Origin: Aeromicrobium sp. | Lineage (GTDB): Bacteria > Actinomycetota > Actinomycetes > Propionibacteriales > Nocardioidaceae | Direction of reading: 5' to 3' | Length of the DNA: 64,000 bases | Assembly: GCA_025964895.1 (NCBI GenBank) | Contig: JAOPXY010000032.1 | Span: forward strand, 2,495-66,494 | Position numbers and translations under genes: made by a program | Shown: one piece after another, positions 37,415-40,000 of the stretch | How positions within the stretch are numbered: position 1 is the stretch's first letter | How the letters are laid out: each line of letters starts with the position of its first letter | Notes under the pieces: model-generated | Seen by the model: the letters and a program-made list of their open reading frames with translations, nothing else | Told to the model about the DNA's origin: nothing | Databases searched by the model: none

Positions 37415-38368
37415 CTACGGGATGGGGATGAGCGGTGGGATGGCCTCTGGCGCGCAAATGGCTTCCGGCGAGGTCTGGCCGGGCCTGGGAGGCCCGTTGT
37501 TCGTCGACGGCGGCGGCAACCGAACCTGGCAATTGATCGACCCGACGTTGAGCTGGACGGGGTTGTCGGGTCCGGAGACGGCGCTGGTCAGCACGCGTGA
37601 GACGTCCTCACCGCTGGCCGTGAGGCACCCGGCGAACGGCGGGATGTCGACCGTTCCCTTCAGGAATCCACCCGCCGAAGCTCCGAAGTGCCCGGTGTTC
37701 CAGGGATGCTGCTGGTCGACGGTGGGGTCGTCGAACCAGTAGCCCTTTCCGACGAGCGACAGCTTGCCGGGCTCCGCCGTCTGGCACTGCTGGCTCAGAG
37801 CGAGGTCGACCCCGTCAACCGCCAGGCGGGTCACGCGGACGGTCAGCCGGTCCTCGATCACCGTGTCGAGCGCCTGAGTGTCTGTGACGTGACCAGGCGG
37901 GACAATTCGGTACTTGTCCATCAAGGACTCGAAGACGATGGGCGCCGGAAAGCCATCCTTCCGGCGCTGCAGCAGCTGCACGGTCGCCTCGACCGGGATC
38001 GCGCCGAAGGCGACGGTGCGCACGGTCGACAGCGGCGACATGCCGTAGTTGTGCTCCGAGCCAGCGGGTGCGACGAAGTAGACCGAGTTCGTCACGACGC
38101 TGGTACTCGACCGCGGGTCACTCGGCGGGTGGTTTCGGTTCGTGACGACGGCGAACACGGCCACGGACTGCATGGGCACCTGCACCCACTGGCGTGCCCG
38201 CAGCGTCTGGGTAGTGCCGGTCTGCGGGGCGCCGGTCCAGCCTCCCTGTCCCGGGGGCTGCGGCAGCCCTGGGTATGGTCCCTCCGCGGCGCTTCCGGAG
38301 GCATAGCCTCCCAGCACCAGGACGGCGGCTGACAGTCCGAGCACCCGGCGCGTGCGCCGGTGCCGCAT
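37415..38368 (-). CDS. Secreted Cys-containing beta-rich hypothetical protein
   Basis: Signal peptide MRHRRTRRVLGLSAAVLVLGG; CQTAEP, GGFLKGTVDIPPFAGC, VSGPDNP; similar to the 39380 protein. Confidence 0.75.
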   Translation of the reverse strand: MRHRRTRRVLGLSAAVLVLGGYASGSAAEGPYPGLPQPPGQGGWTGAPQTGTTQTLRARQWVQVPMQSVAVFAVVTNRNHPPSDPRSSTSVVTNSVYFVAPAGSEHNYGMSPLSTVRTVAFGAIPVEATVQLLQRRKDGFPAPIVFESLMDKYRIVPPGHVTDTQALDTVIEDRLTVRVTRLAVDGVDLALSQQCQTAEPGKLSLVGKGYWFDDPTVDQQHPWNTGHFGASAGGFLKGTVDIPPFAGCLTASGEDVSRVLTSAVSGPDNPVQLNVGSINCQVRLPPPSTNNGPPRPGQTSPEAICAPEAIPPLIPIP

Positions 38369-38466
38369 GGGTGATCTCAACACGGGAGTCACCGTCGCAC
38401 GACGAGTTCGCATCGACAACAAGTTCGCCGGTTCCCGGTGCCTGGGCGAAGAAAACGTCCGCAAAG

Positions 38467-38484
38467 TTGTTACGCGCGTGACAA
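38467..38484. promoter_or_regulatory. TTGTCAC-N4-GTGACAA-like site
   Basis: TTGTTAC GCGC GTGACAA in the divergent intergenic region. Confidence 0.7.
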
Positions 38485-38561
38485 TCCAGCCACGAATTTC
38501 CCGGATAGGGCTCGATCTGCTGGACGACCTGTCGCCATCGGCGTAGACGTTCTGGTCAGGA

Positions 38562-38577
38562 CGTGACGCACGTCACG
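38562..38577. promoter_or_regulatory. CRP/GlxR-like site
   Basis: CGTGA-CGCACG-TCACG against consensus TGTGA-N6-TCACA. Confidence 0.45.
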
Positions 38578-38605
38578 TCGCCCACAACGATCAAGCGGAG
38601 GAATC

Positions 38606-39259
38606 ATGTTCAAGAAGGCAGCAGTAGTTCTCGGAGCGTCGGCGGTCGTCGCGCTGGCCGGCCCAGCCATGGCGGCGGCGCCCTACACCGTGGACGTCGG
38701 CACGTTCACGTCCGGATCGCACAGCTTCACCGCGTCCACGACAGTGCCGATCGCCTTCTCCGTCGCCCACGGCAGCAACACGGTGAACCTGGGCTGTTCG
38801 TCGGGCACGGCCAACGGCTCGGTCACGGCCGGCACGAACGCGACCGGTGCCAACGTCGGCGCCATCGGGTCCAGCTCCTGGACGGGCTGCATCGGGCCGG
38901 GCAACCTCGCGATGAACGTGACCCAGGTCGGGACGTGGAGCCTCAACCTCACGGGCAACGAGACGGCCGCGGTCACCGACGACATCGACGGCAACATCGG
39001 GAACGTCGAGGCGCACGTGGCCGCTGCGCTCTCCGCCGGCCTCTGCAACTTCGATGTGGTGGGTGAGGCCGCCGTGATCTTCCACGAGACCGTCAACGCC
39101 GGCGGTGGGCAGGATCTGCAGGTCGCCGAGAACGGCACCGGCAACCTGTTCGTGGACAACGTCGTGGGCTGCTTCGGCGCGATCTCGAACGGGGATCCGG
39201 CGAGCTTCGCCACGAACTACAACGTCAACTCGCCCGATGGCGCGATCAACGTCCGGTAG
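38606..39259 (+). CDS. Secreted 4-Cys beta-rich hypothetical protein
   Basis: Signal peptide ending AMA-A; GGAGG RBS; Gly/Asn/Thr/Val rich; Cys in LGCSS, TGCIG, GLCNF, VGCFG. Confidence 0.85.
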   Translation: MFKKAAVVLGASAVVALAGPAMAAAPYTVDVGTFTSGSHSFTASTTVPIAFSVAHGSNTVNLGCSSGTANGSVTAGTNATGANVGAIGSSSWTGCIGPGNLAMNVTQVGTWSLNLTGNETAAVTDDIDGNIGNVEAHVAAALSAGLCNFDVVGEAAVIFHETVNAGGGQDLQVAENGTGNLFVDNVVGCFGAISNGDPASFATNYNVNSPDGAINVR

Positions 39260-39379
39260 ATGGCTGAGACCGGTGCTGCTCGTCATGCGGTGTGCCGGGA
39301 CGGCGACGTCGTCCCGGCACACCGCCGACCTGAATTGACCTCCCGCAGATCACGCCTCGCACAACGCACAGGAGACATC

Positions 39380-40000
39380 ATGAAGACCACTGCCCGCCGC
39401 ACCGTGGCGATGATCGGGGCCGGTGCCGTCATGGCGCTCGTGCCGACCGCAGCCCATGCGGACACCTTCAACATCGACTACGACGTCGTCGGTACGACCC
39501 ACATCGCCAGCACGGACAACGACATCGCACTGGGCCCCACCACGTTGTCCACCGCGATCGACTCGGCCAACGGCAACATCTCAGGCCATCTGCCACTTCC
39601 CGCCACGCGAGCCAAGTTCCAGGTGCTCGGCCTCCTTCCCGTGACCGCCGATGTCGCCTTCCAGGAGGCCGCCCCGGTCACGGGCCACATCGACATCGCC
39701 GCCTCCGACGCTCTGGTTCAGTCCACTGCCAGCTACTACATCCGGCTGTCGAACATCAAGGTCGCCGGCCTGCCGACCGTCACCGGCGCGCACTGCCGGA
39801 CGATCGACCCCGTCACGATTCCCGCGAACACCCCGGCGGGCGAGAGCTTCAGCCTCATCGAGGGCGGGACGCTCGCGGGCGAGTACACGATCGGCAACTT
39901 CCAGAACTGCGGCCTCAACACCCTGCTCATCAATGCGTTGATCCCGGGCTCGGGCAACACTGCCGAGATCGAGGTCACCAACGGCCGCTTCGTCGGCTGA
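39380..40000 (+). CDS. Secreted 2-Cys beta-rich hypothetical protein (paralogue of 37415-38368)
   Basis: Signal peptide ending AHA-D; AGGAG RBS; CRTIDP, GGTLAGEYTIGNFQNC, IPGSGN. Confidence 0.85.
   Translation: MKTTARRTVAMIGAGAVMALVPTAAHADTFNIDYDVVGTTHIASTDNDIALGPTTLSTAIDSANGNISGHLPLPATRAKFQVLGLLPVTADVAFQEAAPVTGHIDIAASDALVQSTASYYIRLSNIKVAGLPTVTGAHCRTIDPVTIPANTPAGESFSLIEGGTLAGEYTIGNFQNCGLNTLLINALIPGSGNTAEIEVTNGRFVG

What the first reader, a model, noticed from the sequence alone, without database searches (positions are those of the whole stretch)
37415..40000. Trio of secreted disulfide-bonded beta-proteins, two of them hidden paralogues
The 37415 and 39380 proteins align by eye over their C-terminal halves: VRVTRLAVDG...CQTAEP / IRLSNIKVAG...CRTIDP; GGFLKGTVDIPPFAGC / GGTLAGEYTIGNFQNC; LTSAVSGPDN / INALIPGSGN. 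The 38606 protein is a different 4-Cys, Gly/Asn/Thr-rich type. None shows an enzyme motif, lipobox or sortase signal. Possible roles (inference): beta-cup lipid carriers like ML/NPC2 or Pseudomonas PraA/B-type alkane-utilisation helpers, or subunits of a non-sortase fibre.
Basis: partly seen in the sequence, partly recalled or inferred. Interest (0 to 1): 0.7.

Follow-up and report, generated by a model that had tools for sequence, protein, structure and literature searches.

The report
Secreted beta-barrel trio in Mce regulon
Three uncharacterised secreted, cysteine-paired beta-barrel proteins (two are confirmed distant paralogues) form a conserved gene set that shares an operator with the neighbouring Mce lipid-uptake transporter in soil actinobacteria, so they are probably outside-the-cell helpers of that transporter.

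Summary
Three ORFs encode signal-peptide proteins with invariant, even-numbered cysteines: A (37415-38368, -), B (38606-39259, +) and C (39380-40000, +). None matches Pfam or NCBIfam.

- **Paralogy:** A and C fail pairwise BLAST (E 0.76) but match by profile-profile comparison (hhalign 97.8%, E 1e-12; 98.7%, E 1.5e-16 with independent alignments). B is a separate family.
- **Fold:** AlphaFold gives all-beta, long-stranded models (C pLDDT 90, B 80). No Foldseek hit is significant. The weak best matches are 8-stranded barrels (OmpW, PsbO).
- **Context:** in 34 related loci with full flanks, C sits with A in 33, with A and B in 29, with a PucR regulator in 33, and with an mce operon within 10 kb in 26.
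- **Shared operator:** the palindrome TTGTCA-N6-TGACAA occurs 69 times in 910 kb (0.2 expected). Sites lie upstream of A/B, the mce operon and PucR genes. The window has four one-mismatch copies at those positions.

Best reading: a new extracytoplasmic accessory module of an Mce hydrophobic-substrate importer. Co-regulation is well supported. The biochemical role (substrate capture or hand-over) is inferred.

The parts
37415..38368 (-). Gene A: 317-aa secreted protein. It has a conserved mature N-terminus (EGPYPGLP), a C-like barrel domain at about residues 112-290, four conserved Cys, and a Pro-rich C-terminal tail. The ORF extends to a TTG at 38464, which is probably not used.
38606..39259 (+). 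Gene B: 217-aa secreted, Gly/Thr/Asn-rich protein with four Cys and an all-beta model. It is a separate family and is often present in 2-5 copies in related loci.
39380..40000 (+). Gene C: 206-aa secreted protein with two Cys, a distant paralogue of A. The AF2 model has pLDDT 89.9, long antiparallel strands and one helix.
38467..38484 (.). Conserved palindromic operator (TTGTTACGCGCGTGACAA) in the divergent A/B intergenic region.
37359..37376 (.). Operator copy (TTGTCACGTAGGTGATAA) between the stop codon of A and the start of the RCC1/Big gene.
42288..42305 (.). Operator copy upstream of the PucR gene at 41384-~42154(-).
42802..42819 (.). Operator copy (TTGTGACGCACCTGACAA) directly upstream of the mce operon.
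39287..39325 (+). GC-rich hairpin with an 18-bp stem and no T-run, between B and C (-42.4 kcal/mol for the 50-nt window 39281-39330). It may be a terminator or an mRNA stabiliser.
35174..37015 (-). Secreted RCC1-repeat beta-propeller with Big_3_5 Ig-like domains and a Lys-rich tail. It is a frequent member of the cluster (15 of 34 full loci).
33672..35015 (-). PucR-family regulator, followed by a degenerate HAD/P-type-ATPase-like membrane protein at 32143-~33600(-).
40182..41357 (+). PucR-family regulator immediately downstream of C.
41384..42154 (-). Third PucR-family regulator. The ORF extends to 42394. The start at 42154 is inferred from the position of the operator.
42823..52548 (+). mce operon: MceG-YrbE fusion (the likely true start is the ATG at 42997), a second YrbE, and six Mce (MlaD-type) genes. 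Two Mam-like genes follow at 52422-53683.

Best explanation
A, B and C are Sec-exported, disulfide-stabilised, soluble all-beta (barrel-like) proteins. They form a conserved extracytoplasmic accessory module of one Mce-type ABC importer for hydrophobic substrates, in monoderm actinobacteria (Nocardioidaceae and some other families).

**Shown here**
- A and C are paralogues. B is a second family.
- The three genes travel together, next to PucR regulators and an mce operon, across several actinobacterial families and in different gene orders.
- The A/B promoters, the mce operon, the PucR genes and (in this window) the RCC1/Big gene carry the same palindromic operator. They therefore form one regulon.

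**Inferred**
- A PucR-family regulator binds the operator.
- The barrels bind or relay the lipid-like substrate between the environment or cell wall and the tip (portal) of the Mce needle. They could act as free carriers, by analogy with MlaC or with hemophores, or as docked adaptors.
- The RCC1/Big protein is a wall-associated partner.
For: **Paralogy:**

**Export and conserved Cys pairs:**

**Fold**
- C has pLDDT 89.9 and B 79.5. Both models are all-beta with strands up to 22 residues.
- The best, weak structural neighbours are 8-stranded barrels, several of which carry hydrophobic ligands: OmpW (TM 0.48/0.54), PsbO, and, with much lower scores, LolA, LprG and YceI-like proteins.
- By inspection, the strands alternate hydrophobic and polar or charged residues over their whole length.

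**Synteny**
- In Nocardioides nitrophenolicus the order is PucR, B, B, C, A, then mce.
- In Lapillicoccus jejuensis the order is mce, PucR, A, B, C.
- In a Streptosporangiaceae MAG, B, A and C lie directly upstream of mceG on the same strand.
- In 34 loci with full flanks: A in 33, B in 30, PucR in 33, and YrbE or Mce in 26.

**Regulon**
- [AT]TGTC[AG]-N6-[CT]GACA[AT] occurs 69 times in 910 kb, against 0.2 in shuffles (maximum 2).
- 61 of the 69 sites lie within 350 bp upstream of an A, B, C, MceG, YrbE, PucR or RCC1/Big gene.
- The window has 4 one-mismatch sites at equivalent positions, against 0.56 expected. None of 100 shuffles reached 4.

**Novelty relative to known accessories:** the known Mce accessory proteins (Mam/Omam, LucA, LucB, Mce1N) are all membrane proteins of other types (PMC13492129). 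Mam-like genes are separately present downstream of this operon.
Against: - There is no direct evidence of lipid binding, of a cavity, or of contact with Mce proteins. Model coordinates could not be inspected, so the side on which the hydrophobic face lies is not established.
- Foldseek matches are all non-significant (none at E<=1e-3).
- 8 of the 34 full loci have no mce genes within 10 kb.
- C-like genes in Amycolatopsis stand alone in another context.
- No catabolic genes in the regulon point to a substrate.
- No expression data exist. The source is a soil metagenome, with DNA runs only.
- Co-regulation does not prove physical or functional coupling.
Confidence: 0.45

Rival explanations
1. 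The trio are surface or structural proteins. They might be a non-sortase fibre or coat, an adhesin for hydrophobic surfaces, or a protein emulsifier. B would be the abundant major subunit and A and C the minor ones. They would be co-regulated with Mce because both serve growth on insoluble substrates, but they would not take part in transport itself.
For: - B is amplified to 2-5 tandem copies in several loci.
- 74% of B genes and 84% of C genes are followed by strong hairpins, against 20% in the background. This fits highly expressed structural genes.
- A has a conserved N-terminal peptide and a Pro-rich tail that could serve as docking elements.
- A secreted RCC1/Ig-domain protein is often in the cluster.
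Against: - There is no similarity to any pilin, curli, chaplin or phage-fibre family.
- There is no sortase signal and no assembly machinery in the cluster.
- The models are compact single domains rather than incomplete folds needing a donor strand. This could only be judged from the secondary structure.
Confidence: 0.2
2. The trio belongs to a PucR-controlled envelope or stress regulon. Its proximity to mce reflects shared regulation or inherited gene order only. The proteins would have a function unrelated to lipid uptake, for example cell-wall maintenance or defence.
For: - 8 of 34 full loci lack mce within 10 kb.
- Amycolatopsis C-like genes are solitary.
- The regulon also includes a degenerate P-type-ATPase-like protein and an RCC1 protein of unknown role.
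Against: - The linkage persists across Nocardioidaceae, Intrasporangiaceae and Streptosporangiaceae despite rearranged order and orientation.
- The operator sits directly in front of the mce operon in 14 loci.
Confidence: 0.2
3. The proteins are membrane-inserting beta-barrels (porin or toxin-like) that act on a lipid bilayer, either the producer's or a competitor's.
For: The top Foldseek neighbours are outer-membrane barrels: OmpW, OmpA, OmpX, Ail and NspA.
Against: - All matches are non-significant.
- From established taxonomy, the hosts are monoderm and have no outer membrane.
- The conserved disulfides, the charged residues on one face and the absence of a C-terminal aromatic signal fit soluble proteins.
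- Similarity to aerolysin or gasdermin types has probability <=0.02.
Confidence: 0.05

Closest known systems
Mycobacterial Mce accessory proteins (Mam/Omam, LucA, LucB, Mce1N)
   Same: They are genetically tied to actinobacterial mce operons and are thought to support the transporter (PMC13492129; PMC1810536).
   Different: - Those proteins are membrane-anchored (a TM helix plus an NTF2-like domain, or polytopic) and are mostly encoded downstream of the operon.
- A, B and C are signal-peptide, soluble, all-beta, Cys-paired proteins encoded upstream or divergently.
- There is no sequence similarity.
- Mam-like genes are present separately in this window at 52422-53683 (weak SnoaL_4 hits).
MlaC (with MlaA/PqiC) of Gram-negative Mce systems
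   Same: It is a soluble extracytoplasmic partner that ferries lipid to or from an MlaD/Mce-domain ABC transporter. This is the closest functional analogy.
   Different: - From established knowledge, MlaC has a different, mixed alpha/beta fold.
- There is no sequence or structural match here.
- The host has no outer membrane.
OmpW/AlkL-type 8-stranded beta-barrels
   Same: This is the best structural neighbour of C (8qxp: TM 0.48/0.54, probability 1.0). It has long antiparallel strands and is a family linked to the passage of small hydrophobic molecules.
   Different: - The Foldseek E-value is about 1e-2, which is not significant, with 8-10% identity.
- There is no Pfam OmpW hit.
- OmpW proteins are outer-membrane embedded in diderms. 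A and C are secreted and disulfide-bonded in monoderms.
PsbO and soluble ligand-binding barrels (YceI, lipocalin-like, hemophilin)
   Same: They are soluble extracytoplasmic beta-barrels. PsbO matches C with TM about 0.44-0.47. YceI and hemophilin appear among the weak hits for B.
   Different: There is no significant score, no sequence relationship and no evidence of a ligand.
ML/NPC2 and PraA/PraB
   Same: They are small, secreted, Cys-containing beta proteins that handle hydrophobic molecules.
   Different: - There is no ML-domain hit, and the fold is not an Ig-like beta-cup.
- PraA/PraB could not be compared.

Membership tests
Unnamed A/C superfamily (shared about 130-180-aa barrel domain) | Shared motif set: FGxIPV; R-L/V-S/T-x-hydrophobic-x-V-D/A-G; C-R/Q-T; GGxLxG; I-G/P-x-F-x-x-C; hydrophobic-x-G-x-G-N. 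| tested here: met
   - hhalign gives 97.8% with E 1e-12, and 98.7% with E 1.5e-16.
- The joint alignment has invariant G9, P12, C64, F99, C102 and G115.
- The joint profile finds 1306 clusters (50% identity) at E<=1e-3.
Mce regulon / mce-linked gene set | Conserved neighbourhood with yrbE/mce genes across taxa. | tested here: met
   26 of 34 full-flank loci have YrbE or Mce within 10 kb, in varied orders and orientations.
Mce regulon / mce-linked gene set | A cis-regulatory site shared with the mce operon. | tested here: met
   - The TTGTCA-N6-TGACAA palindrome occurs 69 times against 0.2 expected. Sites lie upstream of A/B (19 and 14 loci), MceG (14 loci) and PucR (13 loci).
- The window has 4 sites.
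Mce regulon / mce-linked gene set | Co-expression with, or physical interaction with, the Mce complex. | not testable with these tools
   Only DNA metagenome runs hold this sequence. No multimer prediction tool is available.
ML / NPC2 lipid-binding domain | Match to the ML domain profile, and an Ig-like beta-sandwich cup. | tested here: not met
   There is no Pfam hit at E<=1 for A, B or C. No NPC2 or ML structure appears among the top Foldseek matches.
PraA/PraB alkane-utilisation proteins | Sequence homology to the Pseudomonas PA proteins. | not testable with these tools
   No reference sequence or profile is at hand. No Pfam or NCBIfam family of any kind matches.
OmpW/AlkL outer-membrane barrels | OmpW profile match, significant structural match, and residence in an outer membrane. 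| tested here: not met
   - There is no Pfam hit.
- Foldseek gives E about 1e-2 and TM about 0.5 only.
- The host lineage is monoderm (established knowledge).
Mam/Omam Mce-associated membrane proteins | An N-terminal TM anchor plus an NTF2/SnoaL-like domain, encoded downstream of mce. | tested here: not met
   - A, B and C are all-beta with cleavable signal peptides.
- The weak SnoaL_4 hits belong to other genes, at 52422-53683.
Sortase-dependent or chaperone-usher pilins | An LPXTG sorting signal or a pilin domain, with sortase or usher genes nearby. | tested here: not met
   There is no LPXTG in any of the three sequences, no pilin Pfam hit, and no sortase or usher among the conserved neighbours.
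Mycobacterial 19-kDa lipoprotein (LpqH, PF05481), considered for B | Profile match across the family. | tested here: not met
   - Only 1 of 30 B members hits, weakly (E 0.004).
- B has no lipobox.

The most novel reading that the evidence does not exclude
These are a new class of secreted, soluble, disulfide-locked beta-barrel lipid carriers or adaptors. They capture hydrophobic substrates outside the cell and pass them through the thick wall of monoderm actinobacteria to the portal of an Mce needle. They would be the missing first step of Mce import, functionally analogous to MlaC or to hemophores but built on an OmpW-like barrel. The whole system would be switched by a PucR-type regulator acting at a shared palindrome.
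Probability: 0.3. Interest if true: 0.8.

Novelty: new variant of a known kind. Interest (0 to 1): 0.6.

Why it matters
Mce transporters are major lipid and sterol importers of actinobacteria, including pathogens. How a substrate reaches the tip of the Mce needle is unresolved, and the roles of the accessory proteins are an acknowledged gap (PMC13492129).

This work identifies two unannotated secreted protein families. One has at least 1306 clusters (50% identity) in public data. Both are tied to an mce operon by synteny and by a shared operator.

That gives concrete candidates for the extracellular step. It also gives a defined regulon (operator plus PucR regulators) that can be tested in culturable, non-pathogenic Nocardioides and Aeromicrobium strains.

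Tried and rejected
- **Pairwise BLASTP of A against C, and of B against A or C.** Not significant. Profiles were needed.
- **B as a third paralogue.** hhalign, with both small and large alignments, matches only the signal peptide. One 16-column GC-motif alignment reaches 15%. The idea remains possible but is unsupported.
- **Sequence search of the PDB** with the C and B profiles. Nothing was found.
- **Foldseek** against the PDB for C and B, and against BFVD for B. No hit reached E<=1e-3.
- **LpqH (19-kDa antigen) lead for B.** Rejected.
- **Domain fusions as function hints.** The ten longest superfamily members have no Pfam domain, and the cluster members carry no informative names.
- **The perfect 9-bp inverted repeat at 38560-38579** as the conserved operator. 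It is not found in any locus. The conserved site is the one at 38467-38484.
- **The small XRE regulator (42472-42684) as operator binder.** It is present in only about 10 loci, whereas the operator and PucR genes are near-universal.
- **Expression data.** Only soil-metagenome DNA runs exist.
- **Literature.** Searches found no description of these proteins.
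Full report
**1. What is there**

The window has about 70% G+C. It comes from a soil metagenome. The closest relatives of its proteins are in Aeromicrobium, Mumia and Nocardioides, so the organism is probably an uncultured member of the Nocardioidaceae.

The finding covers three ORFs:
- **A:** 37415-38464 on the - strand. The likely start is the ATG at 38368, giving 317 aa.
- **B:** 38606-39259 on the + strand, 217 aa.
- **C:** the ORF begins at 39260. The real start is the ATG at 39380, which follows an AGGAG. It ends at 40000, giving 206 aa.

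By inspection, each begins with a positively charged n-region, a hydrophobic core and an AxA-type cleavage site:
- ...ASGSAA/EGPYPGLP in A
- ...PAMA/AAPYTV in B
- ...AAHA/DTFNIDY in C

None has a lipobox cysteine, an LPXTG motif or a C-terminal anchor. Pfam and NCBIfam give no family at E<=1 apart from sub-threshold noise.

**2. The paralogy claim**

Pairwise BLASTP of A against C is not significant (E 0.76). Family profiles are decisive.
- I collected 99 homologues of C and 72 of A and aligned subsets (A1 and A2).
- hhalign gives 97.8% probability and E 1e-12 over 121 columns, with A 120-278 on C 82-202.
- It adds a fourth block, AFGAIPVEATV with VLGLLPVTADV.
- Independent alignments, built from 40 A and 61 C genes found in genomic loci, give 98.7% and E 1.5e-16.
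- Each family's HMM also hits members of the other family in a small database.
- A joint alignment of the shared domain has six invariant columns, including both cysteines.

B (7 database homologues, plus 64 in the fetched loci) matches neither family beyond the signal peptide.

The cysteines are conserved: 2 in C, 4 in A and 4 in B. The even numbers fit extracytoplasmic disulfides. The pairing itself is inferred.

**3. Folds**
- AlphaFold2 of C, with its alignment, gives pLDDT 89.9 and pTM 0.80. The model is an all-beta protein with very long antiparallel strands (up to 22 residues) and one short helix after the second cysteine.
- B gives pLDDT 79.5, and is also all-beta.
- Foldseek against the PDB finds no match at E<=1e-3 for either.
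- The best weak neighbours of C are 8-stranded barrels: OmpW (TM 0.48/0.54) and PsbO (about 0.45), then OmpA and OmpX.
- LolA, LprG and Rv2717c score lower (TMq 0.18-0.27, probability 0.25-0.6).
- B gives the same kinds of hit with lower scores.
- BFVD gives nothing for B.
- The strands alternate hydrophobic residues with polar or charged residues along their full length (by inspection). In a secreted protein of a monoderm, this means a long buried hydrophobic face.
- I could not inspect the coordinates. Whether there is a cavity is therefore unknown.

**4. Context, the main new result**

Synteny in individual genomes:
- In Nocardioides nitrophenolicus, the C homologue lies in the order PucR, B, B, C, A, two unknown genes, then the mce operon.
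- In Lapillicoccus jejuensis (Intrasporangiaceae), the order is mce operon, PucR, A (divergent), B, C. This is the same A<->B-C arrangement as in the window.

A scan of one genome per species returned 48 loci. I scanned them with HMMs of A, B and C and with the window's own Mce, YrbE, PucR, RCC1 and HAD proteins.

Of the 34 non-Amycolatopsis loci with full 10-kb flanks:

| Feature found with C | Loci (of 34) |
|---|---|
| A | 33 |
| B | 30 |
| A and B together | 29 |
| PucR regulator | 33 |
| yrbE or mce genes | 26 |
| Degenerate HAD/P-type-ATPase-like gene | 26 |
| Secreted RCC1+Big protein | 15 |

Other points:
- B is often amplified, to as many as 5 copies.
- In a Streptosporangiaceae MAG, B, A and C lie directly upstream of mceG on the same strand.
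- Six Amycolatopsis loci carry only a solitary C-like gene, in another context.

**5. A shared operator**

While looking at the A/B intergenic region, I found a recurrent palindrome about 135 bp upstream of B genes.
- The pattern [AT]TGTC[AG]-N6-[CT]GACA[AT] is typically TTGTCAYGCGCRTGACAA.
- It occurs 69 times in 910 kb of loci, against a shuffle mean of 0.2 and a maximum of 2.
- 61 of the 69 sites lie within 350 bp upstream of an A, B, C, MceG, YrbE, PucR or RCC1/Big gene.
- The site lies upstream of A in 19 loci, of B in 14, of MceG in 14 and of PucR in 13.

The window has four one-mismatch copies. The expectation was 0.56 at up to 2 mismatches, and none of 100 shuffles reached 4. They lie at:
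- 38467-38484, in the A/B intergenic region
- 37359-37376, ahead of the RCC1/Big gene
- 42288-42305, ahead of the third PucR gene
- 42802-42819, immediately ahead of the mce operon

The trio, the RCC1/Big gene, the PucR genes and the mce operon therefore share one cis-element and are very probably one regulon. PucR is the likely binder. It is near-universal in the loci, whereas the small XRE gene at 42472-42684 has homologues in only about 10. This is an inference.

**6. Mechanism**

The best-supported reading is that A, B and C are extracytoplasmic accessory proteins of this Mce importer.

Mce complexes form a long needle whose distal portal takes up hydrophobic substrates. The known actinobacterial accessory factors (Mam/Omam, LucA, LucB, Mce1N) are membrane proteins, and the way substrate is supplied to the portal is not understood (PMC13492129; PMC1810536).

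Soluble barrels with a long hydrophobic face could capture substrate and hand it to the portal. They might do so as free carriers or as docked adaptors. The RCC1/Big protein is a possible wall-bound partner.
- Shown: co-occurrence and the shared operator.
- Inferred: binding, hand-over and contact with the Mce complex.

Rival readings are a structural or adhesive surface role, a merely co-regulated envelope function, and membrane-inserting barrels. They are listed with their evidence in the rival explanations.

**7. Comparison with known families**
- No defining feature of ML/NPC2, OmpW, Mam/Omam, pilins or LpqH is met.
- PraA/PraB could not be tested.
- The A/C superfamily is large: 1306 clusters (50% identity) at E<=1e-3 and 806 at E<=1e-10.
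- It is unannotated. The ten longest members have no Pfam domain, and names are only 'hypothetical' or 'secreted protein'.
- Literature searches found no description.

**8. Verdict**
The paralogy and the general 'hydrophobic-substrate helper' idea hold. The specific named families do not.
- I rate the novelty as a new variant of a known kind: a new type of Mce-associated accessory module.
- Interest is 0.6. The regulon and synteny evidence is strong and opens a testable route into an open question. The biochemical function remains inferred.

Noticed in passing
window 39287-39325 (+); also downstream of B and C genes in loci L004-L045: A GC-rich hairpin with an 18-bp stem and no T-run sits between B and C (-42.4 kcal/mol for its 50-nt window). 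Across the loci, 74% of B genes and 84% of C genes are followed by a hairpin of -25 kcal/mol or stronger. The figure is 24% for A genes and 20% for the background.
   Followed up: partly
window 38560-38579: A perfect 9-bp inverted repeat (GACGTGACG-CA-CGTCACGTC) lies about 45 bp upstream of the ATG of B. It is not conserved in any related locus.
   Followed up: yes
window 32143-~33600 (-), downstream of the PucR gene at 33672-35015: A membrane protein with a HAD/P-type-ATPase-like domain (Pfam Hydrolase 2.6e-11, weak E1-E2_ATPase). The phosphorylation motif reads DQHGT instead of DKTGT. A homologue is present in 26 of 34 full loci, next to a PucR gene where checked (window, L001), so it may act as a sensor or pseudo-enzyme partner.
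   Followed up: partly
window 35174-37015 (-): A secreted RCC1-repeat beta-propeller with two Big_3_5 Ig-like domains and a Lys-rich C-terminal region. It is in the cluster in 15 of 34 loci and has an operator copy upstream in the window.
   Followed up: partly
window 42472-42684 (-): A 70-aa XRE-type HTH protein lies between the third PucR gene and the mce operon. Homologues are at the same place in about 10 loci only.
   Followed up: yes
window 52422-53159 and 53114-53683 (+); 53798-54283 (+): Two genes right after the six mce genes give weak SnoaL_4 (NTF2-like) hits, as expected for Mam/Mas-type Mce-associated proteins. An RDD-family membrane protein follows.
   Followed up: partly
L001 13017-14075 (+) and homologues in 11 loci: A further unannotated 352-aa family lies just upstream of mceG and is preceded by two operator copies in L001. 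It is absent from the window.
   Followed up: partly
L046-L051 (Amycolatopsis), around 9900-10490: Solitary C-like genes (33-37% identity) lie without A, B, PucR or mce nearby, between a large helicase-associated-type ORF and what look by eye like conservon-type genes (sensor kinase, roadblock, GTPase; not profile-checked).
   Followed up: partly
window 42823-44769 (+): The MceG ATPase is fused to the first YrbE (MlaE) permease in one ORF (Pfam ABC_tran plus MlaE). In Lapillicoccus and the Streptosporangiaceae MAG, the two are separate genes.
   Followed up: no
L005; L004 and L025 (same contig): The whole module (PucR, RCC1/Big, A, B, C) is duplicated in tandem in Nocardioides dubius and occurs twice, about 15 kb apart, in Aeromicrobium sp. 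UC242_57.
   Followed up: no
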